A stretch of DNA of 64,000 nucleotides. It comes from an uncultured Nitrososphaeraceae archaeon (GTDB lineage Archaea; Thermoproteota; Nitrososphaeria; Nitrososphaerales; Nitrososphaeraceae). The notes beneath the pieces were generated by a model. The model searched no databases, was not told the DNA's origin, and saw only the letters and a list, made by a program, of their open reading frames with translations. The position numbers and the translations under genes were made by a program. Below are positions 4,143 to 64,000 of this stretch, in pieces. The number at the start of each line of letters is the position of its first letter. The stretch's first letter is position 1. The DNA lies in contig CAVXZB010000038.1 in NCBI GenBank assembly GCA_963765895.1, positions 96,001 to 160,000 on the forward strand. Direction: 5' to 3'.

Positions 4143-5055
4143 GTCCTACCGTATAAGAAGATTGGAGATTTAGTACTTAAAAATGTGTTAATTATACTCA
4201 GGTTGATATCCAGAAGCACAACTTGTAAATAGATAAAATCAAGGAGGCTTTGCATTTAGCATTGTAGAGACTTGGATCAAGAAATGAGGTTCTTGTTAAA
4301 TAGATGAGAACGGAAGATTCTACTATTGAGATACCAATCAATCCAGGCTTATTAATCGCAAACCATTCATAATTTTGAACGAGTACTATTCGTGGCAATT
4401 TTGTGGATTGTAACGGCAAGCCCACCTTGGTCTAGAAGTACAATCAGCGATCAGATTATGGGTTGATGCGAGGTTTGATAAAGCTATTGAATTTACAATT
4501 ACAGGTAGGGCAGAATTACAATGTGATGAAAAATTGGTTTTCGAACTATTATAATCGCTCGACAACAGTTATCTCTCATTACCATTAACTTTGCATGGGC
4601 TTCCTCATTTTGGCAGGCAATATTATGAAATGTCATTACAAAATCGTTTCCATAGTTTTCACGGAATGAAGCGCCAGTATTTTAGTATTATCAATTCTCG
4701 TCGTAGTCTAATTCACAGCCGGTGCAAGTATTATACTCTAGATGGAAACAAAATTAGGTCGGACTATAGACAATAAAAATTACATTGTCAGTCTACCAAG
4801 TACGATCAAATTATTCCCTTGTCGGGAAATAAGATGTTTGCCATGTGTGCGTTAGAATGAATATTCTCATGGATAACAAATGTTAAGCATATTTGCCCCA
4901 CTCAAAACCAGAACAAAGCAAGAAAATTAGGCATTAATCCTACAACTTATCAAGATCTCAAAAAATCTATGGGTAAAACATGATAAATCAACTATAGACC
5001 GCGAGTATTAAAACAAGTTTATTAATAAGCTCTGTTATAGCGGAGAATAACATCT

Positions 5056-8025
5056 ATGTCTGGTTCGCGTTCGCAAATAAACTGGTTTGTCCAACTGCTA
5101 ATAGTCTTTTCAGTTTCTGTTATCATATTGATCTCCACTCTCACGAGTAACGGCGTTTACACGATGAGCTTTGCAAAATCTTCTGACCGAAAGATACCTG
5201 GGACTACCTCAGGTATAGGAGAAGATCGAGGATCCAGATCTAGAAATAATCAATTACGAAATGAGACCGGGCCTCCGTCGACATCATCGCCTTCGATACC
5301 TGAGGCACCGACAAAAAGTGGAACTGGTACTCTTACAGTCAAAAAAATTATGATTAATGATGGTGGAGGCACCAAAAGGCCATCAGATTTTACAATTAAT
5401 GTCGATGGAAATAATCCCTCTCCACAATCATTTCCTGGCAGCTCTTCAGGCACATCAGTTGAATTAAACAAAGGCAGATATTCAGTTACAGAAACTGGTC
5501 CATCTGGTTATACTTCAAACCCATCATCAGGATGTTCTGGTTCAATAAATCCAGACCAGGAGAGGAACTGTACGATAACTAATGTGTACAATAAGCCTGT
5601 CCCACCACCTGTAACCACTGGAAAAATAATAGTTACTAAACAGGTGGTTAATGATGGTGGAGGCACCAAAAGGCCATCAGATTTTACAATTAATGTCGAT
5701 GGAAATAATCCCTCTCCACAATCATTTCCTGGCAGCTCTTCAGGCACATCAGTTGAATTAAACAAAGGCAGATATTCAGTTACAGAAACTGGTCCATCTG
5801 GTTATACTTCAAATCCATCATCAGGATGTTCTGGTTCAATAAATCCAGACCAGGAGAGGAACTGTACGATAACTAATGTGTACAATAAGCCTGTCCCACC
5901 ACCTGTAACCACTGGAAAAATAATAGTTACTAAACAGGTGGTTAATGATGGTGGAGGCACCAAAAGGCCATCAGATTTTACAATTAATGTCGATGGAAAT
6001 AATCCCTCTCCACAATCATTTCCTGGCAGCTCTTCAGGCACATCAGTTGAATTAAACAAAGGCAGATATTCAGTTACAGAAACTGGTCCATCTGGTTATA
6101 CTTCAAACCCATCATCAGGATGTTCTGGTTCAATAAATCCAGACCAGGAGAGGAACTGTACGATAACTAATGTGTACAATAAGCCTGTCCCACCACCTGT
6201 AACCACTGGAAAAATAATAGTTACTAAACAGGTGGTTAATGATGGTGGAGGCACCAAAAGGCCATCAGATTTTACAATTAATGTCGATGGAAATAATCCC
6301 TCTCCACAATCATTTCCAGGAAGTTCAGCTGGCTCTACCGTAACACTAAATCCCGGAAATTATAAAGTATTGGAACAGGGTCCAATATCTTCACAATTCG
6401 TGCCTGGTAAGTATACGCCAAACTACTCAGCAGAATGCAATGGAGTTATCAAGGCAGGTGAGACAAGTAACTGCATTATCACGAACAAGTATAATCCATT
6501 CGTTCCAGGCCTGCTATCAAAATTAATAGTCACTAAAAGGGTAATTAATGATGGTGGAGGCACCAAAGGGCCATCAGACTTCACCATTACCGTACATGGA
6601 AATAATCCTTCGCCTAATTCCTTCCATGGAAGTTCGTCTGGAACAAATGTAGAATTGAAGCCTGGTAGGTATAGTGCTACAGAAACTGGTCCTATCTCTC
6701 GTTACAACGCTGACTATTCAAAAGATTGTTCAGGAAATGCTAATGCTAGTCCTAATTCGATCAAGAAGTGCAATATCACAAATGTCTATCAAGAACCAGG
6801 ACCAACTTCGAAATTAATAATTATAAAAAACGTAGATAATAGTCTGCAAGGGTCCTTGAACAAAAGACCATCAGACTTCACCATCACGGTACATGGAAAT
6901 AATCCTTCACCTAGATCATTTGATGGTAAGTCAGATAGTGGCATTTCAGTCTCGATTTACCCTGGCAGCTATAGGGTAACTGAAAAGAGCCAATCAGGAT
7001 ATATCGTAGACTATTCTGCTGACTGTGATGGTAGTATAAAGTCAGGACAAACAAAGGTCTGCATAATAACTAACGAGGGTACATCCAGGTCTTTGCCTAG
7101 TATAGTTACCAGACCATTAGTAACTAATATTACTGGCTTTTCTTCGCCATATGGGGTTACAACAGATACTTCTAGTGGTAATGTCTATGTGACAAACTAT
7201 GGTAGATTCAATTCAACTGGCACTGTGTCAATAATAAATAGCACTACTAACACTATAACAAGTTCTCTTCCTGTAGAAAAGAACCCTCAGGCTGTCGCAT
7301 ACAATTCTGCTAACGGTCTTGCCTATGTCGCTAATCTTTTATCTAATACTTTATCCGTAGTTAACGGTACTGTCAACAAGGTAGTAAATTCTATTCAAGT
7401 AGGCAAATCTCCCGGTAATAGTCCTAGTGGTATAGGCATAAATTCCATAAATAATACGGTGTATACAATCAACACAGGTTCTAACACCGTATCAGTAGTT
7501 AATGGTACCAACAACCAAGTAAAAGGATACCTCTTAGGATTCTTTAACCCGTCTTCTGTATCATACGACCCGGATAACGATGGGATTTATATCAGTAACA
7601 GGGGGACAAATACTATATCTATAATTAATGGTTCGACTAATAGCGCAGTAAAGACAGTGTCTTCGGGCGGAGTTTTGCCATCAGCTTCAGTCTACAACTC
7701 GGCTAACGGGCTAGTCTATGTGAATAACGCCGGTTCAAACACCGTATCTATTCTTAATACGACCACCAATCGTGTAGTAGGCGTAATTCCCGTAGGCGCC
7801 GGGCCCAGCGGCATAGCATACAATCAAGATAACGGCAAAGTATATGTTGCTAACTCTGTATCCGGCACAATTTCTGTGATAAATGGTTCATCGAACACTG
7901 TCACTAATACAATACTGGTAGGAAGAACGCCAATCGGGCTAGCATATAACCCAATAAATAATAGCATATATGTTGCGAACTCTGATTCAAATACGGTCAC
8001 AGTAATTAAAGAGATCAATCCTTAG
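5056..8025 (+). CDS. Secreted surface protein: six prealbumin-like/Ig-like repeat domains plus C-terminal YVTN/YncE beta-propeller
   Basis: N-terminal hydrophobic signal; repeated K.V.NDGGGTKRPSDFTI.V.GNNPSP...C...C.ITN domains; YVTN/YVAN...SNTVSVIN blades. Confidence 0.88.
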   Translation: MSGSRSQINWFVQLLIVFSVSVIILISTLTSNGVYTMSFAKSSDRKIPGTTSGIGEDRGSRSRNNQLRNETGPPSTSSPSIPEAPTKSGTGTLTVKKIMINDGGGTKRPSDFTINVDGNNPSPQSFPGSSSGTSVELNKGRYSVTETGPSGYTSNPSSGCSGSINPDQERNCTITNVYNKPVPPPVTTGKIIVTKQVVNDGGGTKRPSDFTINVDGNNPSPQSFPGSSSGTSVELNKGRYSVTETGPSGYTSNPSSGCSGSINPDQERNCTITNVYNKPVPPPVTTGKIIVTKQVVNDGGGTKRPSDFTINVDGNNPSPQSFPGSSSGTSVELNKGRYSVTETGPSGYTSNPSSGCSGSINPDQERNCTITNVYNKPVPPPVTTGKIIVTKQVVNDGGGTKRPSDFTINVDGNNPSPQSFPGSSAGSTVTLNPGNYKVLEQGPISSQFVPGKYTPNYSAECNGVIKAGETSNCIITNKYNPFVPGLLSKLIVTKRVINDGGGTKGPSDFTITVHGNNPSPNSFHGSSSGTNVELKPGRYSATETGPISRYNADYSKDCSGNANASPNSIKKCNITNVYQEPGPTSKLIIIKNVDNSLQGSLNKRPSDFTITVHGNNPSPRSFDGKSDSGISVSIYPGSYRVTEKSQSGYIVDYSADCDGSIKSGQTKVCIITNEGTSRSLPSIVTRPLVTNITGFSSPYGVTTDTSSGNVYVTNYGRFNSTGTVSIINSTTNTITSSLPVEKNPQAVAYNSANGLAYVANLLSNTLSVVNGTVNKVVNSIQVGKSPGNSPSGIGINSINNTVYTINTGSNTVSVVNGTNNQVKGYLLGFFNPSSVSYDPDNDGIYISNRGTNTISIINGSTNSAVKTVSSGGVLPSASVYNSANGLVYVNNAGSNTVSILNTTTNRVVGVIPVGAGPSGIAYNQDNGKVYVANSVSGTISVINGSSNTVTNTILVGRTPIGLAYNPINNSIYVANSDSNTVTVIKEINP
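5354..6317 (+). repeat. 294-bp intragenic tandem repeat, ~3.3 near-identical copies
   Basis: ttaatgatggtggaggcaccaaaaggcc recurs at 5354, 5648, 5942 and 6236; the only difference noticed is the synonymous C>T at 5814. Confidence 0.97.
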
Positions 8026-54004: not shown

Positions 54005-54080
54005 GGTAAGGACGGTAAGTAGAGGTAAGGACGGTAAGTAGAGGTAAGGACGGTAAGTAGAGGTAAGGACGGTAAGTAGA
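54005..54080. repeat. 19-bp perfect tandem repeat x4
   Basis: ggtaaggacggtaagtaga x4, each unit with two GGTAAG half-sites. Confidence 0.97.
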
Positions 54081-54145: not shown

Positions 54146-54403
54146 TTGGATCATACTTACTCACCATACACAGGAACAAACAAAAAGCAACGCATATGGG
54201 CGCTAGTATCAGATGGTAAATATTCCTCAGATCAGATAGCTTCAATGGTTGGTACTACTATAGAATATGTCTGGAAGGAGACAAGTAGATGTAGAAAATC
54301 TACAACAGCAACTGGCCTTGTTCTTAGTAGGAGGACCACACAGCTATCAAAAAGAAAGGATGCAACATACATCCATCTTTCCAACATAAACATCAAATAT
54401 TGA
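54146..54403 (+). CDS. Small or truncated HTH protein
   Basis: KKQRIWALV..GKYSSDQIASMVGTTIEYVWKETSR is HTH-like. Confidence 0.55.
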   Translation: MDHTYSPYTGTNKKQRIWALVSDGKYSSDQIASMVGTTIEYVWKETSRCRKSTTATGLVLSRRTTQLSKRKDATYIHLSNINIKY

Positions 54404-54416
54404 AGCTATCAAAAGT

Positions 54417-55382
54417 TTAATTGCTACTGTTACTTTCCATTCTTACATAGTCGAGAACTACTTTACCTCTTGGATGGACATCCTTTTGGTAGTCTAGTGC
54501 CTTACCTGCCTCCTCTAGTAAAAATGTCCTGTCTACATTTACTTTTACATTATTTTAATCTACCCACTGTGCCAATTTAGTCAGCCGTTCTCTATCTGCT
54601 TGTGTGAACTGAAATATTGCCTTGACATTATATTGATTCATCAGCTCTGAGTTTGGCTACTTTAGCATAGAGATAATTATGCCACCTTTCTTTAAGACTT
54701 TGAAAGACCTTTTGTATGTGTCACCGCCTACAGTATCAAAGACTGAATCATAGTCATGCAGCAGATCTTCAAAGTTCTGGCTCTTGTAGTCTATGACTTG
54801 ATCAGCTCCCAGTTCTTGGACAAACACCTTGTCATTTGCACTTGCCGTTGTCGCTATGAATGCTCCCAAGTTCTTGGCAAGCTGTATAGCAATTGATCCT
54901 ATACCTCCTGCTCCACCATGAATTAGAATCCGTTGACCATTTGATAATCCAATGTTTTCAACAAGTGCGCGCCATGAACTAACGCCTACAAGTGGTAAGG
55001 CCGCCGCTTCGCCATGGCTTAGCCTCTTTGGTTTATTTGCGATAGTTTCTGTCTTTGCTAAAGCCATTTCTGCAAATGCTCCTGACCCACCAGTTAGCTA
55101 CTCCAGCTTGTCCATATACTTCATCTCCTTGCTTGAAATCTGATAGACACCTCCTCCAATTTCTTTGACAATACCTAGAAAAATCCATACCCAATGTAAA
55201 GGGGAATTGAAGTTGTATCATTTGTTGAAAGTAACCTTCACGAATTTTCCAATCTACAGGATTTAGGCCAGCTGCTTTTACGCTAACTAAAACTTTTCCA
55301 GAAGATAAAGTTGGTTCAGGCGTATTTTGGTTAATCTCAATAACCTCACTGCCTCCGTACTGTTAATTTGAGCAGACTTCAT
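54417..55382 (-). pseudogene. NADP-dependent MDR oxidoreductase (quinone oxidoreductase-like), frameshifted
   Basis: VLVSVKAAGLNPVDWKIREG, EAAALPLVG, ILIHGGAGGIGSIAIQLAK, VFDTVGG and HPRGKVV over several frames. Confidence 0.85.
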
Positions 55383-55863
55383 TGCCATATAATAAATTAT
55401 GAGATATTAAAGAGTGTGCTAAAATGCAAGGTACAGAAGACGTTATGTGGGAACAGAAAATCATGGCGGATATCCTTAAGACGTACAGTGACCATATCAT
55501 ATCATGATGACGAATGTTCCGGAGTGGATTGGACCATAAAAAGCCGATCGCCGATTCTATGTCTTTCATTCTAGCTAGTTCTAACGAATATCGAATTTCT
55601 TGCACGAAATCACCAGATTCTGAAAATGGTAGATTTCGAAAGCTTCCAGAGTAGGAATAACTGAAAATGATATTGGCCTATTCAGATTATTCATTCTCTG
55701 AAGGTTGCATATTTTCGAATACTATAAAATCATTTGCTTCCGGAAATGCTATCTTGTTAGGTAAATTTTAAGTCTATTGATAACTTCTATAAACATAAGG
55801 TTTGAATCCGATATCTTATTCAAAACCAATATTTTTATAACTCCTCTAAAAGTTATTGTTTAC

Positions 55864-56842
55864 TTGGAAACTAGATTAATAATACTTGATGTTCTAGCAT
55901 CACTAATTGTTCTTGCAATTGTATCAAGTATTGTTATATTGCAATTAGAAGCTTATGCTCTATCAAAGGATGTAGTTTAAGGTTCACAGCGGCAATTGAC
56001 AACACTGGCAAATACTTCAGAACTATACTAACAGAAATGATAGCAGAGTATTATCAGATTCTCCTCCTACAAATATTCGTCCTAATATTCAAACAGATTA
56101 TAATCTCAACATGCAACTTCTCCAAGAATATCTAAGTTTGCATATATTGATCCTCTTGCACTTCTTATTGGAGACTATCAGATAGGAAGACTAGTGTTGA
56201 TTGCACCATTTGCGGTATGTAGAAGTGATGAAGGAACGCCTATTCATATTGGAGACTATTCTAATATGCAAGATGGTGTAATTTTACATGCTCTTGAAAC
56301 AACATCATGGTAAGAATATTGATAATAGAATATATTGAGCAGCAGGGATATCTTTTGAAGGGAAATGATACTGGCTATAAGGATGGTTTTGCAATATTTG
56401 TTGGTGATAAGGTTAGTTTAGCACATGGAGTACAGATACACGGGCGGCATTTATTGGAAAGACACATTTGTAGGTATGAATAACTTGATCTTTAATACTA
56501 AAAGTTGGCATAGAGTGGCTATAGGAGATCAGTACGATAACCGAGGTGTTCCAATCCCTGACAATAAATTTACCACCAGGAACGCTTGTAACTACACAAG
56601 CGGTTGCAAATGCTTTATCATCAATAGTTGGAAGCCAATATGGGGAGATAAACGGAGCTGTTCTGCACGTAAATCAAGAGCTTGCAAAAGGATACAATGC
56701 ACAAACCATTCAAAAACTGGCTACAGAGATGGAAGATGTGTTAGAGCAGGAAGAGATGCTTCAAACAGGTAGTCCAACAGGAAACCCAAATGATTTATCT
56801 AGTAATAATAATAACAGTGACCTGTCATACTTGAGGAAGTGA
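55864..56842 (+). pseudogene. Secreted gamma-class carbonic anhydrase (Cam-like), multiply disrupted
   Basis: Signal peptide; AYIDPLALLIGD, RSDEGTPIHIGDYSNMQDGVILHALET, VSLAHGVQIHG and VLHVNQELAKGY; several frameshifts and stops. Confidence 0.88.
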
Positions 56843-57440
56843 AGATGACCAATGGGATAACTAATAATACTTAGATAATAATGGAACATTAGGAAAGACG
56901 ACTTTTAGTGGGCAGCTATAGTCGCAGTAATAGTATTAGCACAGGTGTTTACGCACTTTAGTCTACTATGATAAAAACCATCGATAAAATGTAAAAACCA
57001 ATAGTAGTCAATAGAAAAGTATACTGCTCACAGTCTACTGTCTTTTTATTATACCTGGCTCAAAAAATGTAGTCCTATTATTTCCGGGCGTCATAATTAA
57101 AGTAATCTGCACCTGAACCTCCGTTGCTGGGTTTGTGCCTCCATTACCAAGTAAATTCCACGGCATGCCATTATTCATACCATTAATATATTTGAGCACT
57201 ATCGATTTTCTTCCTTTCTATTACAGTGCTACACTTATGTAATCGAATTGTTAATAAAATAATGGTACTTATTAGTAATAGAAACTGAAAGACGATTCTA
57301 ATATCGAGGGGCGCACATACTCATGTTCCCGTTCATCTATACACGTACATATACAAGATAAGACCAGGATGAGCCCAATAAACGCTAAAACTATCGGCAT
57401 TTCCACTCTGTCGACTCTGTCGACTCTGCAAATTGATGAT

Positions 57441-57625
57441 ATTTGATTCAGGCAATAGCCAGTGAGTGTTAACACATCGGACAGTATAGGATTTTGACAA
57501 GTCCAGTATAATTATATCGGAAAAGTGCCTTCTAATACAGAAGTGCGGCAGGCACGTCAGATTATAAACATTTTCTAAATTGAGGTATCATCTGGAGAGC
57601 CAGACTTCGTTCGATGGGCATAGAT
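57441..57625. repeat. Dispersed repeat copy A (core 57530-57568)
   Basis: Core ttctaatacagaagtgcggcaggcacgtcagattataaa; left ~90 bp homologous to copy C, right ~60 bp homologous to copy D. Confidence 0.9.
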
Positions 57626-57930
57626 GTTGATAGGGACAAAAAGTTTCATGTGTAACTCAATTTATGGCCCTCAAAAATGAATCTCATACCACCAGTAACA
57701 TCAGCTCATCATGTTTTGTTTTCAACTCAAGTATTTTCTATCAAACGCAAGGTATATTGATGCATAAAACTAACCTCGTATTCGTTACCTTCAGGCAAGG
57801 TCATATACCTAAGTTATTGACAACGAAATAGCGCTTCGTTTCTAATCAACTGCGGTTAGAATCTTCTTCATAAAGAATAAGCATAATGTTCAACTATGAC
57901 CAAACGTAGTATCATTGATTGAACTATAAG

Positions 57931-58175
57931 ATGATAATGGCAACAGCAATAATCGCAGCGGCCACGGTAACAGCATTCGGCATACCCAAGGTGGCGCACG
58001 CAGACGGATCAAGTGCAGGAAGTAGAGGGCGGCGCGAGAGGACTTTAGGAACCATGTAGGTTTTCAAGGAAGTTGCGCAGATCACGGATATGATGTGACT
58101 CTGAATCCTGGATGGTGTCTGGACTTTAAGAGCTGATACGCGATTCAGTGGGGGAGTCCTAAGTCTAGGTCAATA
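57931..58175 (+). pseudogene. Small secreted two-Cys protein, frameshifted
   Basis: MIMATAIIAAATVTAFGIPKVAHA|DGS.../REDFRNHVGFQGSCADHGYDVTLNPGWCLDFKS*YAIQW. Confidence 0.55.
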
Positions 58176-58276
58176 AGTAAACAAGTGTTTACGCTTACTT
58201 AAAACAGTCCTAACGTACAGTCTGAGCTTCTACATCAGCAACAGCCTTTACTACAGGGTTGCTGGCTCGTAGCACC

Positions 58277-58516
58277 TTATAGACTGGGTTTATTAAGGCA
58301 ATGATTCTTAATATCATCTTTATAGTCCTTGGCGTTTTTATCTGATTTCTCCACGAGGCACGTTGTTGTGTCTCCCTCGCTACTAGCAAATGGGACCACG
58401 TCCTTAATAGGTTTATTGAGCCCCTCGGCGACAGGGGATATGGTATAAAGACTATGTATTGATAGATTAAACCAACATGAAATAACCAATGCATTGTAAA
58501 CAAATGCATTAACCAC
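58277..58516 (-). CDS. Small hypothetical, possibly secreted, probably disrupted
   Basis: Hydrophobic N-terminus, two spaced Cys and overlapping frames. Confidence 0.35.
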   Translation of the reverse strand: MVNAFVYNALVISCWFNLSIHSLYTISPVAEGLNKPIKDVVPFASSEGDTTTCLVEKSDKNAKDYKDDIKNHCLNKPSL

Positions 58517-58798
58517 TCAAAATAAAAATTGTCGAAGTATAGACTATTGCAATTGTAACGAATTTGAAAAGGCAGTTGACTATTATAATATTCGATATTG
58601 TCGGCTTGAGGACGATAAGTTTAACGCAGTAAAAAAGGGGTTGTTCCCTATTTCCCCTCTTTAGATATAGCGTCCCACTGCTAGTCTGGAGCCTTTCAAG
58701 TATTGTTCATGGTGTACAAAGAAACTAAAGCAACTAAAGAGTGAATAGTTATCCATACCACTTATATCGACCATAGCCCTTAAAATCATACACGAATA

Positions 58799-58978
58799 AT
58801 GCAGCCATACCACATGCTATTTAAGAAGGCCGAAGAGGGAGGCTTTACAGGAAAGTGCTTAGAGTTACCTGGAGCCATTTCTGAGGGAGAAACCATGGAA
58901 GAACTTAGAGAAACAGATAGAAGCACTCTTGTTAGCAAGAGTTATACAAGAAGTAGCAGAACTAAGGTAATGCGCTAG
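58799..58978 (+). CDS. hicB: HicB-family antitoxin (C-terminus probably frameshifted)
   Basis: MQPYHMLFKKAEEGGFTGKCLELPGAISEGETMEELRE. Confidence 0.82.
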   Translation: MQPYHMLFKKAEEGGFTGKCLELPGAISEGETMEELRETDRSTLVSKSYTRSSRTKVMR

Positions 58979-59018
58979 TGAACGAAGTAATCTAACAAAG
59001 TAATTATTGACTGACTAA

Positions 59019-59226
59019 TTGAGTCTACGAAATCATAACTGGCGTGAGGTAGTTAGAGTTCTAAGTCGTCATGGTTTTGATATGGAAAGTTGTGCTTGAC
59101 AATCTCTATAACAATATATCGAAGAGATAAAGGATGATCCAAAATCAACAGATAAAACAGAGTACGTTAAGGGCTATTCTTGACCAGGCTGATATTTCAA
59201 GAGAGCAGTTTCTTAGCGAACTGTAG
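59019..59226 (+). pseudogene. hicA: HicA-family toxin with disrupted centre
   Basis: LSLRNHNWREVVRVLSRHGF...IKQSTLRAILDQADISREQFLSEL*; GSH motif region not recognisable; internal stops. Confidence 0.78.
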
Positions 59227-59312
59227 CGTATAACTAGGATCAGTGTCGCAGACGGCACATGCGGCGTTTACAACGAACCAACTGACACTATTATTTCTTT
59301 TCTATATTTTTT

Positions 59313-59525
59313 ATGTTAAAGAGGCTAACTTCCAGTAAGTAGGCATTAGCTTGGTTTTGCTAATTGTAGGAACCGCCGCACCGACTACAATCTTGACAAT
59401 TCAGCCAGCGCAGGCACAGCACAATCACTGTCGCTTGCCAAACGGGACCATTCCCCAGGCCAAGGAGACCAAGGTTGTCCCCTGGGCTTAATTGATAACC
59501 CAGGGAGCGAACACGCAGGCAACTA
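59313..59525 (+). pseudogene. Small secreted two-Cys peptide, frameshifted
   Basis: VGISLVLLIVGTAAPTTILTIQPAQA|QHNHC.../GQGDQGCPLGLIDNPGSEHAGN*, followed by a poly-T tract. Confidence 0.5.
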
Positions 59526-59609
59526 ACTTTTTTTTATTTTTATTTATAAACTAAACAAACCGCATATTTTTCATTTATATAGTAAAAAATCTCTGGCGAT
59601 TTCACGAGG

Positions 59610-59844
59610 GAATTTATGAACTCCTTTTTGGTTTTAGTACACCACGGACAGAACCGAAAGGGGGCCAGCGACGCTATAGGCCTATCAAGACGCCGTAGGC
59701 CTATAAAATTGTGCATCATTGCATATACCAACCGTCTTTTGTTATAGCGTTATAGGAATTCTCCTTAGCCTTGTAGTAACAGACATCATATTCCACGCTT
59801 TTTTCAAATTTGCGACAACAATATTCTCCAGCCAATATAGTCAT
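59610..59844 (-). pseudogene. Small CC...FCPWC Zn-binding protein (DUF6980-like), frameshifted
   Basis: MTILAGEYCCRKFEKSVEY...DGWYM/...PFRFCPWC; ATG overlaps the upstream stop as TAATG. Confidence 0.55.
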
Positions 59845-60020
59845 TACGAATTATCTGTGACGTCTTTGCTGCCATTGCCATCGCTCTCGCTGTTATTGCT
59901 TTTCATTTTTTTAGTTTTGTTATGTGAATAGACAATAGTCCAGATAGTTGCTACAAAATATGGCAACATTATCAGTATTGCTACTACAGGTGTAACTTCA
60001 GTTGGAATGACTGTGACCAT
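59844..60020 (-). CDS. 58-aa single-pass membrane protein
   Basis: MVTVIPTEVTPVVAILIMLPYFVATIWTIVYSHNKTKKMKS...; manual translation. Confidence 0.55.
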   Translation of the reverse strand: MVTVIPTEVTPVVAILIMLPYFVATIWTIVYSHNKTKKMKSNNSESDGNGSKDVTDNS

Positions 60021-60027
60021 AATTTAA

Positions 60028-60192
60028 TTATCTCTCTTCAGTAACTTCTCCTTCTTCAACAATGAGGTTTGATATCTCTGAACCATCGACATGTCTTATT
60101 ATGATATTGTATAAGTGGTCCATGCCTTGATCCCTATTCTCGCACTCGAAAGTTCCAGATATCTTAAAACTATAACGCTTTCTTTCTGTCAA
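60028..60192 (-). CDS. 54-aa hypothetical protein
   Basis: (M)TERKRYSFKISGTFECENRDQGMDHLYNIIIRHVDGSEISNLIVEEGEVTEER; ends 7 nt before the next ATG. Confidence 0.5.
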   Translation of the reverse strand: MTERKRYSFKISGTFECENRDQGMDHLYNIIIRHVDGSEISNLIVEEGEVTEER

Positions 60193-60217
60193 TGAATTCC
60201 ACGTCTCAAGTAACTAA

Positions 60218-60433
60218 TCATTTACCCTTTTTTATCTCATCCGTGGTGTGCTGAAAGATTTTAGTCGTATATGTATTATTACTACTGCTACCGTTACTGG
60301 TTGGTGGGTGTGTCGTAAATGTATCATTTCCAAGTGCCTTCACATTTACACTAAGCGAGGCAAGTGAAGCAGATCCTGCCAGGACCATTGTAACTACGAT
60401 GATACTCGCCAGAATAATTTTCTTGGTTAACGT
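60218..60433 (-). CDS. Small secreted protein (start codon apparently ACG or mutated)
   Basis: LTKKIILASIIVVTMVLAGSASLASLSVNVKA|LGNDTF...; manual translation. Confidence 0.5.
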   Translation of the reverse strand, partial: TLTKKIILASIIVVTMVLAGSASLASLSVNVKALGNDTFTTHPPTSNGSSSNNTYTTKIFQHTTDEIKKGK

Positions 60434-60674
60434 TGTTAGTTAGTTTACTAGACCCCCTATTTGATAACTATGTCATTTCTGTCTTTACCTGATATCACTA
60501 GCATAAAGGGTTCCTTAAGATTTCTAATGGGTTGTTTAGACCGTGAGTCAGCGTTTTTATACGACCTTGTGCCTTTACTCGTATAGAGCCCTTAATTAGG
60601 TCAAATTTGATTCACACACCCTTTGGGCCCCAGAAGATATATAGCACTAAGAGGCTAGATGATTTGGATAACAA

Positions 60675-60900
60675 GTAATTATATGAATAAGTCCTTTTTT
60701 TGATGATTGGACGTTCTTTTTGCTAATGGTGCTTTGCTAATGGTGCTTCTTGGTAAACACTTGTTGTAGGTGGATTCGGTCTTTTGCAGTTCAGTAACTG
60801 ATCGATTGTCAAGATTTGGATCTTTGGATACTTGTGTTTCTAGACAGATGATGCATAAGGATCTGTTATTTTAGGTTCCTTTATCATTTTACTTGTCATC
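60675..60900 (-). pseudogene. C-terminal remnant of a DNA methyltransferase-Mrr-like endonuclease fusion
   Basis: MIKE...Y...*KHKYPKIQILTIDQLLNCKRPNPP...YQEAP resembles the conserved YPxIQILTIxxLL tail; contains a 14-bp duplication at 60719-60746. Confidence 0.6.
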
Positions 60901-60999
60901 TCTTATCTGTGCTTCTCTATGATTGATCCCATCATTGATGATGTTCCACCGGTTGTATCCAATTATTAAAATAATAGATAGTAATAATAACAAGAACAT

Positions 61000-61236
61000 C
61001 TAGTGTGAGCGATAATAATGATGGCTGTCGCTAGTTCTCCTCTTATCAAAAGAAGCAGCATTCCGTGGCGGAGGAGGACTATCATTCTCATGTCCTGAAT
61101 GTGTTCTAATATGATTCCAATAGTCTGAACTTGTGATCGCAGTTTTACATACAGGACAATTGGCATACCCACATCTATGATGTCCTATAAAGTTTGGATG
61201 AAGCGTAATGTTACATCTATCACATTTATTTTGCAT
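61000..61236 (-). CDS. Small double zinc-finger protein
   Basis: CDRC..HHRC and C2H2-type CPVC...YWNHIRTH. Confidence 0.65.
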   Translation of the reverse strand: MQNKCDRCNITLHPNFIGHHRCGYANCPVCKTAITSSDYWNHIRTHSGHENDSPPPPRNAASFDKRRTSDSHHYYRSH

Positions 61237-61504
61237 GTCTATTTTATCACTTTTGTCGTTGATAGTAGTATGTGCATATCATAATTAGGATGTATCGAAC
61301 GATTGCACTTATATCACGCTGGATAAGATGAAGCTCCAATTACTATATGAAGTGAGAATAGTTATAGTTATTTCACATGCATTCTGGATATACATAGGCT
61401 AATCAGATAACAGTTTATATATGTCTTAGTCATGGGCATGCTCTAGTACTGGGTGACGCGGTCCCACTACCTATTTCATAAGTAGCGGGCCGTGAATTAT
61501 TATT

Positions 61505-61744
61505 TCCCCTACCGGTGCATTATATCCAGCATGATATCCGGCGCAGTGGTCTGCTGTGTGGTTTACACATACCTCTAGTTCAGGATGATCAAGCATCCGA
61601 AGATCCTTCCGGATATCCATCAATATAGATTATGTTCTTAGGCGTTGGTTCGAATGTACTCACAAATATTCCCTGCTCGTATTCGAAGATATACTCAGCC
61701 GAATGCGCCTGTCTATGAGGGACTATGTATTGATCATAGTACAT
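61505..61744 (-). pseudogene. Small GY-repeat/Cys protein remnant
   Basis: HSAEYIFEYEQG..YIDGYPEGSSDA/ CVNHTADHCAGYHAGYN. Confidence 0.45.
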
Positions 61745-61824
61745 GCATATAATATATTGCCGCCGTAATATCAGGCTCTCACTTCATCGGTACATGATGT
61801 AGATGTCTCTTTAAATCCTGTGTT

Positions 61825-61877
61825 CTCTAATACTGATGTGCCGCATATCAGATTATAAATATCTGCTTAAATTGAGG
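61825..61877. repeat. Dispersed repeat copy B (core 61825-61859)
   Basis: ctctaatactgatgtgccgcatatcagattataaa, then taaattgagg as in copy A. Confidence 0.88.
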
Positions 61878-61933
61878 CGACTCTACAAATGCTGATCTAT
61901 AGGTAGTAGCAAGTGATGGATGTGAACCAGTGT

Positions 61934-62063
61934 ATTTAATTCAGTCAATCACCAGTAAGTTTTAACACATCGGACAGTATCGGATTTTGACACGCCCGTA
62001 TAATTATACCGGAAAAATATCTTCTAATACCGATGTGCGACATGCCAGATTATAAATACTTCT
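61934..62063. repeat. Dispersed repeat copy C (core 62022-62056)
   Basis: ttctaataccgatgtgcgacatgccagattataaa preceded by ttaacacatcggacagtatcggattttgaca...gtataattatac, shared with copy A. Confidence 0.9.
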
Positions 62064-62821
62064 GAAAACAGGCATAGGATGTAATGATCAGTGCCTATGG
62101 GTTATGGCAAAAAACTTATGTACAGGCTGCTCAAGAGGCGCGCCCGCCACACCAAAAAGGAAATAGGAATGTTATGATAATAATGATAATAATATCGTCA
62201 GGCTAGGTTACGTTCGCGCTCCTTCTTCTTCGTCATCTGATTTCCAAATAAAAAATGATGAAATAATGATAAAAATAATACGGCATCTACCACTAGAAAT
62301 ATCAACAATTACTTGAAGCGCAGGGCGGATGAGACAAATGAAATCCTGCTAAGCAGTGATGTTTAAGCTTTGATCTCTAAATGATCTAACTGGATAGTAA
62401 CGTCTGGAAGAGTAGCCTTATCAGATTAATGAGTTTGTATATATCTTCTATTTATTACTGTATCAAAATACGGTAATAAATTTTGCTACTGTTGATTAAT
62501 GCAATTAAGACACCATTGTTGATCTACTGGCAGAGCTTCTGTTCTGGGCTCAGGTACCTCTACTGCTCATACCGCTATTCACGTCCTGTTCAGATATAAC
62601 TCGTACAAGGTATTTTGTATCTTTGCCACATTTGTCACATAGCATATTATTTTTCTTACGATCTATTCGTTTGACATTATATAATAAGAAATCGTCCTTC
62701 AATCCATCAAATAAGAAATTGTAGACAATTCAATTAATCGTTATAATGTAGGCAAATACACTCAAGGATTAAAGAACAACACAGATGGCCCACTTGGTAT
62801 CTACATACAACATGATAACTA

Positions 62822-62923
62822 GGAAAAGTCCCTTCTAATATAGATGTGCCGCACGCCAGATTATAAACATTTGGTAAAGTGGTATCTTATATGGATAGAC
62901 CAGCTTGGTTGAATGCACATAGA
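62822..62923. repeat. Dispersed repeat copy D (core 62833-62867)
   Basis: ggaaaagtcccttctaatatagatgtgccgcacgccagattataaacattt; right flank homologous to copy A. Confidence 0.9.
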
Positions 62924-62950
62924 ACTGAGTAGTTGATACTGCCCCAAATG

Positions 62951-64000
62951 CTAAGTCATGCCCGGCGCGCCAGCAACCTGTCTTCTTTCGATTTCCTGTA
63001 ACCTAGCTGATAATGACACAAGCTGATCTGATAACCGGCTATGGCATCATCCTTTATTTTATCGCGCTGTCTTAGTGATTGATTCAATTCTTCCAATTCC
63101 TCTACCTTAGTCTGTATATCGGCGCCCTGTCTTTCTAGTTGCTGGACATTAAGGAATATAGATAAGGTTCAATTTTACGGAATATCTCAGCTTTTTCCCG
63201 AATCCTTTTTGCGCCAGTATGTAGAACCTGCGTGTCCTATAATATTCCGAGTAATCAGCATAACCTAGGTCAGATATGGTAGTCTTAACAAACCTTCTAA
63301 ATGAATGAAGAGTTATCTGTCTTCGTCGTTCGTTACCATCCTCTCTTGCATCTTTACCTATACGATCTATTGTCATTTGAAAAGACTTTAGCAAGTCGTT
63401 ATAAAGCCACAAATAATTTGGTCTTTCAATATCTTGGTAAACTGCAAATACAAAATCAGTATTAATCATAGTGGGATTTCTATATTCTGAAATGGTTTTT
63501 CCATCTTGCTTGCCTTTGTGGCAGACTCTCCTGGTTCGATATTTATAATCTAGCCATGATTTTAACTGATTGGCGACTTCGTTAGTTAGAAAAATAATTC
63601 TATCTGATCTGGTCTTAGTATATTCACCTCTTATAGATAATTTTGAAGGAGTTGAGTCAAAAATCCAAGTCCTTTACACGTATTGATAAAGCTTCTCCTG
63701 CACGCATACCGGTGGTTGCTAACAACATCGTAAAAGTTTTTAGCATGATGTCAGACGATGGCATTTAATATCTCTACGATATCCTCTTTAGATATCGCCC
63801 TTTATATCTTATTGCTGTGATTTATACCTTTAGTTATCTACGTACTAAAATATATTCATGATACTCAAGAAAGTTTTTTTATCGTTACGACTCGCTGCTT
63901 CAGCGTAATTGTTGAAATCCTGTTTTCACTTGAATATCTAGCATATCTATTGAGAAGAGAGTAAGCATCTTCTTTATTCTTCTGATTTTTGAAATCAAAT
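62951..64000 (-). pseudogene. Tyrosine recombinase/integrase with C-terminal coiled coil, frameshifted; 5' end beyond window
   Basis: LLATTGMRAGEAL (R), EYTKTRSDR (K), TLHSFRRFVKT (HxxR) and IGHAGSTY (H, Y), then QLERQGADIQTKVEELEELNQSLRQRD. Confidence 0.9.

What the first reader, a model, noticed from the sequence alone, without database searches (positions are those of the whole stretch)
57441..64000. Tyrosine recombinase with four co-oriented palindromic sites delimiting blocks of tiny genes: candidate cassette-accretion system
Seen: a ~35-bp core, approximately TTCTAATACNGATGTGCCGCAYRYCAGATTATAAA, occurs at 57530, 61825, 62022 and 62833. All four have the same orientation, and the last lies ~85 bp from the integrase stop. 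The core is an imperfect palindrome (TTCTAAT-a-CNGATGTG / CAYRYCAG-ATTATAA) with one unpaired base. Between copies lie unrelated small genes: HicBA, secreted peptides, Zn-finger proteins and an R-M fragment. Known: tyrosine recombinases act on inverted-arm sites, and integron arrays carry such small cargo and TA pairs. Here the sites lack the attC RYYYAAC/GTTRRRY boxes, lie 3' of the integrase, and the enzyme is not recognisably IntI. Inference: a non-integron, att-site-based array that gains or shuffles cargo in ammonia-oxidising archaea.
Basis: partly seen in the sequence, partly recalled or inferred. Interest (0 to 1): 0.75.

Follow-up and report, generated by a model that had tools for sequence, protein, structure and literature searches.

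The report
Dispersed mobile-element repeat, not cassette sites
The four matching 35-base sites are real, but they are the best-kept piece of a roughly 330-base repeat scattered over a hundred times through this soil archaeon's genome as debris of plasmid-like mobile elements, and nothing shows that the neighbouring dead integrase gene cuts and joins DNA at them.

Summary
The four co-oriented cores exist as described. They are not a local system. Each is the most conserved segment of a ~230-340-nt non-coding module with 118 nhmmer hits on 38 of 88 contigs. The module occurs in 6 of 6 congeners and 0 of 34 genomes of other genera.

The integrase link is weak. Only 7 of 118 hits lie within 2 kb of a PF00589 match. 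All 12 loci of the same integrase family fetched from four congeners lack the module. The window's integrase is a frameshifted pseudogene.

About 18-20 modules sit directly 3' of remnants of a ~790-aa P-loop gene.

In the closest relative, window ~54380-64195 is replaced by 1.17 kb, and no breakpoint falls at a core. The one exactly delimited module-bearing insertion used a tRNA 3' end as its att site, not the core.

Neighbouring modules are strongly co-oriented: 43 same versus 6 opposite within 10 kb. This fits tandem integration of mobile elements followed by decay.

Verdict: a decayed mobile-element array. The cassette and att-site mechanism is not supported.

The parts
57439..57679 (+). 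Repeat copy 1 (model positions 94-327; 5' part internally deleted). Core at 57530-57568.
   Evidence: nhmmer hit C38:153439-153679, E=5e-43; exact half-patterns.
61826..61872 (+). Solo core 2 (model positions 186-232 only), directly abutting copy 3. Core at 61825-61859.
   Evidence: nhmmer E=3e-4. The only window copy that folds into the proposed hairpin.
61876..62150 (+). Repeat copy 3, nearly full length (model positions 36-313). Core at 62022-62056.
   Evidence: nhmmer E=1e-61; 82-92% identical to copies on C38, C60, C40, C19 and C64.
62808..62976 (+). Repeat copy 4, 3' half (model positions 160-331). Core at 62833-62867. Its 3' end overlaps the integrase stop region.
   Evidence: nhmmer E=4e-17. 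The downstream 1.3 kb is 88% identical to C60:3214+.
62956..64000 (-). Tyrosine-recombinase pseudogene. It continues to about window 64163, beyond the window end, and is broken into at least 4 ORF fragments.
   Evidence: ORF lists; PF00589 match at C38:159630-159758 with an internal stop; an intact 411-aa homologue in G006 scores PF00589 55 bits.
54380..64000 (.). Island (to about 64195) present in G000. In the closest relative G004 it is replaced by 1.17 kb holding five short collinear relics.
   Evidence: G004:C190 synteny; blastn breakpoints at L001 379, 4446-4543, 4909-4990, 5082-5152, 6947-6998, 7478-7505 and 10196.
58799..58978 (+). HicB/UPF0150-like ORF fragment (cargo relic).
   Evidence: Pfam PF21748, E=0.0032, 17.8 bits, below the 27.3-bit cut-off.
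61000..61236 (-). 78-aa Cys/His-rich ORF between cores 1 and 2; no family found.
   Evidence: ORF list; 0 Pfam families.

Best explanation
The four cores are copies of the most conserved segment of a ~230-340-nt non-coding module. That segment is an imperfect dyad followed by an AT-rich, TATA-like box. The module belongs to a genus-specific family of plasmid-like integrative elements, whose native arrangement places it directly 3' of a ~790-aa P-loop gene that may encode a primase-helicase-like protein.

These elements insert by site-specific recombination at short att sites. This is shown once, at a tRNA 3' end, where the module lay about 25 nt inside one element end. Repeated insertion into the same spots, followed by deletion and gene decay, would leave co-oriented strings of modules. 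Between the modules lie mixed cargo and gene fragments.

Window 54380-64195 is one such decayed string, with a dead integrase at its edge. The core is not the crossover site. I infer that it works inside the element as a protein-binding or origin/promoter-like site.

Shown: the extent and distribution of the repeat family, its gene linkage, one exact insertion, co-orientation, and the island's absence from a relative.
Inferred: the tandem-integration origin of the arrays, and the core's internal function.
For: - Family size: 33 cores on 23 contigs; 118 module hits on 38 contigs.
- Conservation profile: a sharp 5' edge at -185, a peak at the core, and decay to about +100.
- Distribution: 6 of 6 congeners hold the module; 0 of 34 genomes of other genera do.
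- Gene linkage: about 18-20 copies lie 20-60 nt 3' of, and co-oriented with, C-terminal remnants of the P-loop gene. C75:1719-4074 is nearly full length. Full-length relatives are 786-788 aa. The protein atlas places the protein near DUF5906/primase-helicase clusters; this is a lead only.
- Exact insertion: a 1,983-bp insertion (L014 1879-3860) faces an empty site in G004:C161. It sits at a tRNA (Rfam, 32 bits) and is flanked by an 11-15-bp direct repeat. It carries the module plus an alpha/beta hydrolase gene (PF00561, 81 bits) and no integrase.
- Co-orientation: 43 same versus 6 opposite within 10 kb, p=6e-8.
- The island is absent from G004.
- Tandem re-use of att sites by archaeal integrative elements is described in PMC6563490 (passages read).
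Against: - Only one exact insertion was resolved.
- A search for 11-mer direct repeats between each module's 5' flank and the next 20 kb showed no excess: 43 copies with a match downstream versus 41 upstream, of 79 copies. The att sites of the other copies are therefore unidentified.
- No complete element (integrase + P-loop gene + module + both att sites) was found in G000.
- Within clusters, full and partial copies do not follow the order expected from simple tandem integration.
- Co-oriented pairs include near-identical duplicated segments (C7/C52, C13/C44, C26/C59), so the pairs are not independent.
- The junction at msrA lies at the core's 3' edge, and about 20 copies start just 5' of the core. 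Both hint that some recombination does occur at or near the core.
- The P-loop protein has no Pfam, PHROG, NCBIfam or PDB sequence hit.
Confidence: 0.55

Rival explanations
1. The cores are recombination (att-type) sites for the adjacent tyrosine recombinase or a relative. Segments between cores are cassettes that are gained, lost or shuffled at the cores, by analogy with an integron.
For: - The four window copies are co-oriented, and co-orientation holds genome-wide.
- The consensus has a dyad with a bulged base.
- The arrangement of a core about 90-100 nt from an integrase 3' end recurs at C38, C60, C32 and C24.
- One junction lies exactly at the core's 3' edge.
- Tandem core duplications occur in the window (cores 2 and 3) and on C75.
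Against: - 111 of 118 copies lie more than 2 kb from any PF00589 match, and 61 of 118 are on contigs with none.
- None of 12 loci of this integrase family in congeners has the repeat.
- The four core-plus-integrase copies share 84-88% identical flanks, so they are copies of one composite rather than independent associations. All four are broken or truncated.
- G004 breakpoints at this locus avoid the cores.
- The resolved insertion used a tRNA att site.
- The 13-15-bp spacer between the dyad arms is longer than the 6-8 bp usual for tyrosine recombinases (recalled from memory).
- 3 of the 4 window cores do not form the proposed hairpin.
Confidence: 0.08
2. The module is an autonomous small non-coding mobile repeat (MITE- or REP-like). 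It spreads on its own and is only incidentally found in islands.
For: - More than 100 copies, mostly intergenic.
- Many copies lie near contig ends.
- Many copies have no recognisable element genes nearby.
Against: - The consensus has no inverted repeat of 9 nt or more, and the best terminal match is 10 of 13.
- No target-site duplications were found.
- Conservation peaks in the middle and fades outward in subfamily-specific tails that include coding sequence. This is the opposite of a MITE, where the ends are best conserved.
- Only one TnpB remnant exists in the genome, and it is not near any repeat.
Confidence: 0.15
3. The module is a family of small RNA genes or a structured RNA element. 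The TATA-like box would drive a ~70-100-nt transcript, or the hairpin would act as a terminator.
For: - A TATA-like ATTATAAA is followed about 26 nt later by a conserved NTG-TRTAGAC and a semi-conserved 3' motif CATGAGGCGCGCC.
- One covarying pair occurs in the core dyad.
- One metatranscriptome contig contains a paralogous core plus downstream sequence. DNA carry-over is not excluded.
Against: - No Rfam match at E<=1.
- RNAalifold finds no consensus structure on either strand for 37 copies.
- The downstream 87 nt fold barely better than shuffles (mean z -0.84).
- The 190 nt upstream of the TATA box are as conserved as the putative transcript.
Confidence: 0.07

Closest known systems
Tandem arrays of integrated mobile elements that re-use one att site (tyrosine-recombinase iMGEs, cryptic integrated elements of Thaumarchaeota; PMC6563490, passages read)
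   Same: - Insertion at a tRNA 3' end with a short direct repeat of 11-15 bp. The paper reports a median thaumarchaeal att length of 17 bp.
- Islands absent from relatives.
- Co-oriented units, with integrase genes nearby in some cases.
   Different: - Here a long (~330 nt), highly repeated internal module marks the units.
- There are more than 100 copies per genome.
- Most units are decayed to fragments.
- att sites were identified for only one unit.
Integron cassette arrays (IntI, attI, attC)
   Same: - Co-oriented imperfect-palindrome sites separate small, unrelated genes.
- A bulged base lies in the dyad.
   Different: - The sites are dispersed genome-wide and not adjacent to an integrase.
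- No R/L boxes (GTTRRRY) appear in the consensus.
- Spacing is 1-10 kb.
- The sites are embedded in a 330-nt repeat.
- No strain breakpoint at the sites in this locus.
Dispersed intergenic repeats of prokaryotes (MITE, REP/BIME, ERIC, BOX)
   Same: High copy number, intergenic location, partial dyad symmetry, lineage-specific.
   Different: - No terminal inverted repeats or target duplications.
- The centre is the best conserved part.
- The repeat is physically tied to the 3' end of an element gene in about 18-20 copies.
Replication-origin hairpin region downstream of the primase-helicase gene of small archaeal plasmids such as pRN1
   Same: A conserved non-coding region with a hairpin and an AT-rich tract, immediately 3' of a large P-loop replication-type gene.
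   Different: - The function of the P-loop gene here is only a lead.
- No replication data exist.
- The copies are chromosomal relics.

Membership tests
Integron (cassette array) | Array of sites directly adjacent to the integrase gene that acts on them | tested here: not met
   7 of 118 repeat hits lie within 2 kb of a PF00589 match. None of 12 integrase loci in congeners has the repeat.
Integron (cassette array) | attC-type sites with conserved R''/L''-L'/R' boxes (RYYYAAC / GTTRRRY) | tested here: not met
   The consensus core TTCTAATACAGATATGCGGCGTGCCAGATTATAAATA contains neither box (read by eye).
Integron (cassette array) | Cassettes gained or lost exactly at the sites between strains | tested here: not met
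   G000 versus G004 breakpoints at this locus lie at L001 379, 4446, 7505 and 10196, none within a core. No clean joint from one core to the next was seen among the joints of the four runs laid. This rests on one relative and one locus.
Integron (cassette array) | IntI-specific additional domain in the integrase | not tested
   Only PF00589 and a weak PF02899 hit were seen in the intact homologue.
Tandem array of tyrosine-recombinase integrative elements | Insertion bounded by direct repeats (att) at a tRNA or other target, with an empty site in a relative | tested here: met
   Met for one unit: L014 1879-3860 versus G004:C161, direct repeat GTTTGAAGCGG, tRNA by Rfam at 32 bits. The window's own units were not resolved.
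Tandem array of tyrosine-recombinase integrative elements | Co-oriented units sharing element-internal sequence | tested here: met
   43 same versus 6 opposite neighbour pairs within 10 kb. The pairs are not all independent.
Tandem array of tyrosine-recombinase integrative elements | att copies at every unit boundary | tested here: inconclusive
   The 11-mer direct-repeat scan showed no excess: 43 copies with a match downstream versus 41 upstream, of 79. att sites shorter than 11 bp would be missed.
MITE | Terminal inverted repeats and target-site duplication | tested here: not met
   No inverted repeat of 9 nt or more in the 346-nt consensus; the best terminal match is 10 of 13.
IS200/IS605 ends (TnpA/TnpB hairpin ends, omega RNA) | Association with tnpB or tnpA genes | tested here: not met
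   PF07282 gives one broken match above cut-off in the genome, at C84:370266, away from any repeat.
Known structured RNA family | Match to an Rfam model, or a conserved covarying structure | tested here: not met
   0 Rfam matches at E<=1 in window 56500-64000. RNAalifold energy is 0 on both strands.

The most novel reading that the evidence does not exclude
The ~330-nt module is the boundary and recombination site of a genuine, non-integron gene-accretion system in soil ammonia-oxidising archaea. An unidentified recombinase would recognise the bulged dyad core, perhaps as folded single-stranded DNA as with attC, and string cargo units in one orientation.

The following are consistent with this reading:
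- 43:6 co-orientation of neighbouring modules.
- A junction exactly at the core's 3' edge.
- About 20 copies beginning just 5' of the core.
- Tandem core duplications.
- Mosaic copies whose left and right halves belong to different subfamilies.
Probability: 0.1. Interest if true: 0.8.

Novelty: new member of a known kind. Interest (0 to 1): 0.33.

Why it matters
As proposed (a new cassette system run by a tyrosine recombinase), the finding would have been a notable archaeal parallel to integrons. The evidence here does not carry that.

What remains is useful but modest. A genus of large-genome soil ammonia oxidisers carries more than 100 copies per genome of a conserved non-coding module. The module derives from plasmid-like integrative elements and lies in co-oriented strings inside variable islands.

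- The module is a practical marker for mapping mobile DNA and island boundaries in these fragmented assemblies, because many copies sit at contig ends.
- It helps explain part of the genome inflation to 4.9 Mb.
- It points to an uncharacterised ~790-aa P-loop gene family as the probable replication gene of the elements.

I found no description of this repeat in two literature searches. The supplementary att-site table of PMC6563490 could not be opened and might bear on this.

Tried and rejected
- A gap-free 36-nt pattern found nothing, because copy 1 has a 4-nt insertion. Half-patterns were used instead.
- IS605/TnpB origin: rejected.
- Rfam search, a whole-module RNAalifold fold and folding of the downstream hairpin region gave no convincing RNA.
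- Idea of an SSV-type attP inside the integrase gene, prompted by the inverted right-half match at 63540-63552: a 13-nt AT-rich match with 1 mismatch, not pursued, probably chance.
- Promoter-of-the-downstream-gene idea: the first ORF of 100 aa or more within 700 nt downstream is convergent in 30 cases and co-oriented in 11, so rejected as a general role.
- Change-point mapping of mosaic copies gave only 4 informative pairs. Their breakpoints lay about 133 nt 5' of the core, 22 nt 3' of it and 160 nt 3' of it (two pairs), which is too few to conclude anything.
- The 11-mer att scan was uninformative.
- ARAGORN found no tRNA next to any repeat, and missed the one that Rfam found.
- Metagenome and metatranscriptome contigs: shares of 12% or less, and no joint from one core to the next. 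Loose ends at core edges are explained by paralogous copies. Parts without cover say nothing.
- An over-loose regular expression produced only noise.
- Earlier-findings look-up: empty.
- Synteny searches for C23, C84 and C24 loci gave no usable filled/empty pair. The C19:22500-35000 locus gave no long syntenic flank either, but its msrA junction could still be compared with congeners.

Full report
**Observation.** The window is G000:C38:96001-160000, in a 4.91-Mb, 88-contig, 36.8% GC genome rated 88% complete. The left half-pattern matches exactly at 57531, 61826, 62023 and 62834; with up to 2 mismatches there are 5 matches against 0.67 expected, and 0 of 100 shuffles reached 5. The right half matches exactly at 57558, 61849, 62046 and 62857. 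Core 4 ends about 88 bp from the end of the last integrase ORF fragment. The integrase is a pseudogene split into at least four ORF fragments and runs to about window 64163. An intact 411-aa homologue from a congener scores 55 bits on PF00589.

**The palindrome.** It is weaker than described. Only copy 2 folds as proposed, and copies 3 and 4 fold no better than shuffles. Across 93 distinct cores, 72% of the proposed pair cells can pair, against 26-44% in shifted registers. A column shuffle gives 70.6%, so this is a conserved consensus dyad with one covarying pair.

**The cores are pieces of a long dispersed repeat.** The repeat finder already showed that copies 1 and 3 share 65 + 51 nt upstream of the core.
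- A regular expression finds 33 cores on 23 contigs.
- blastn with the unit between cores 2 and 3 gives 61 anchors.
- A profile built from 33 long copies gives 118 nhmmer hits (E<1e-3) on 38 contigs.
- All-against-all coverage shows a sharp 5' edge 185 nt before the end of the TATAAA. Subfamily-specific tails reach -450.
- The consensus has no terminal inverted repeats, no Rfam match and no RNAalifold consensus structure on either strand.
- By blastn the family is present in 6 of 6 other species of the genus and in 0 of 34 genomes from other genera.

**Link to integrases.** PF00589 gives 24 matches in the genome. Seven of 118 repeat hits lie within 2 kb of one, and three of those are this window's. 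Random placement on the same contigs gives 3.9 (P~0.1). At 10 kb the count is 25 against 16 expected (P=0.002), which indicates co-occurrence in the same islands rather than pairing. The arrangement of a core about 100 nt from an integrase 3' end recurs at C60, C32 and C24. Those copies share 84-88% identical flanks and are all broken or truncated, so they descend from one composite. Twelve of 12 loci of the same integrase family fetched from G001, G002, G005 and G006, several with intact 381-411-aa genes, have no repeat within about 3 kb even at E<=10.

**What the module belongs to.** Upstream alignments show coding sequence ending 20-60 nt before the module. About 18-20 copies follow, in the same orientation, C-terminal remnants of one protein, truncated at varying points. 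C75:1719-4074 is nearly full length, with one frameshift. Full-length relatives are 786-788 aa. They carry a Walker-A-like GEQGSAKST (read by eye) and have no Pfam, PHROG, NCBIfam or PDB sequence match. The protein atlas places them near DUF5906/primase-helicase clusters, which is a lead only. A second subfamily follows a ~55-aa ORF.

**Strain comparisons.**
- *This locus.* G004:C190 is syntenic on both sides. Window ~54380-64195, holding all four cores and the integrase, is replaced there by 1.17 kb that keeps five short collinear relics. No breakpoint is at a core. Soil metagenome contigs show the same deleted form and no joint from one core to the next.
- *C19:141000-148500.* G004:C161 has a clean empty site. 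G000 carries a 1,983-bp insertion at the 3' end of a tRNA (Rfam 32 bits, missed by ARAGORN), flanked by the direct repeat GTTTGAAGCGG. The insert holds the module about 25 nt from one end plus an alpha/beta-hydrolase gene, and no integrase. This is ordinary site-specific integration, and the core is not the crossover.
- *msrA (C19 and C48).* The module is fused to the gene's promoter exactly at the shared ATAAATATTCT, whereas G004 (aligned at the junction) has unrelated sequence upstream and G001 and G002 show no module hit there. This is the one breakpoint at a core edge.
- *C48:36.7 kb.* G004's orthologous copy has a plain 136-nt internal deletion that removes the core.

**Arrays.** Neighbouring modules are co-oriented far more often than chance: 28 versus 5 within 5 kb and 43 versus 6 within 10 kb (p=6e-8). 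Examples are 11 of 11 on C48 and 8 of 9 on C25. Some pairs are duplicated segments and so are not independent. The first ORF of 100 aa or more downstream is more often convergent (30) than co-oriented (11), so the TATA-like box is not a general promoter for the next gene.

**Reading.** The module is an internal, end-proximal part of a family of plasmid-like integrative elements. Repeated integration at the same sites, followed by decay, best explains the co-oriented strings and the mixed, fragmentary cargo. This behaviour is described for archaeal elements in PMC6563490 (passages read). The window segment is one such string. What the core does is not shown. I infer an element-internal protein-binding, origin-like or promoter-like site, by analogy with origin hairpins 3' of plasmid replicase genes (recalled from memory, not checked).

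**Limits of this reading.** The att sites of most units were not found. No complete element was recovered. Some signs of recombination near the core remain. I therefore keep a 10% reading in which the module is itself a recombination boundary.

**Caveats.** The assembly is fragmented and many copies sit near contig ends, so counts are lower bounds. Only one close relative (G004, 420 contigs) gave usable synteny. Supplementary tables of the cited paper were not available.

Noticed in passing
L059 8312-9263 (= G000:C25:18312-19263); also L018 3916-4865, L016 5331-6280 and C38:179060-180008 (outside the window): A ~950-bp element is present at 99-100% identity at 35 or more places in G000, and at 77-89% identity in all six congeners. 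At C19:40.4 kb it is an insertion relative to G004:C300. It looks like a recently active IS or non-autonomous transposon.
   Followed up: partly
G000:C75:1719-4074; proteins P0001, P0002: A ~790-aa P-loop protein family has no Pfam, PHROG, NCBIfam or PDB sequence match. It ends in a conserved Cys/His-rich motif (CCPIIAIK.GYYYCRLHPEIKN..LESIEHHIKYKDP). The atlas suggests a primase-helicase.
   Followed up: partly
L014 3881-3939 (-) = G000:C19:144881-144939: A tRNA gene (anticodon loop read by eye as CCU, Arg) was detected by Rfam at 32 bits but not by ARAGORN, with or without introns allowed. ARAGORN calls only 23-27 tRNAs in the whole genome.
   Followed up: partly
window 63540-63552 (-): An inverted copy of the right half-motif (TAGATTATAAATA, 1 mismatch) lies inside the integrase pseudogene. 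It is probably a chance AT-rich match.
   Followed up: no
L058 4716-4850 versus G004:C56 (alignment A1): The orthologous repeat copy in G004 has a clean 136-nt internal deletion that removes the core, bounded by AAT microhomology.
   Followed up: yes
L001 10711-12120 (-), i.e. about window 64711-66120, just beyond the window end: A 469-aa patatin-like phospholipase gene (PF01734, 78 bits) sits next to the island. It has many 72-91% identical paralogues across the genus.
   Followed up: no
window 54039-54079 (+): A short tandem repeat with unit about GGTAAGGACGGTAAGTAGA lies some 300 bp before the island's left boundary. It was seen only in script output.
   Followed up: no
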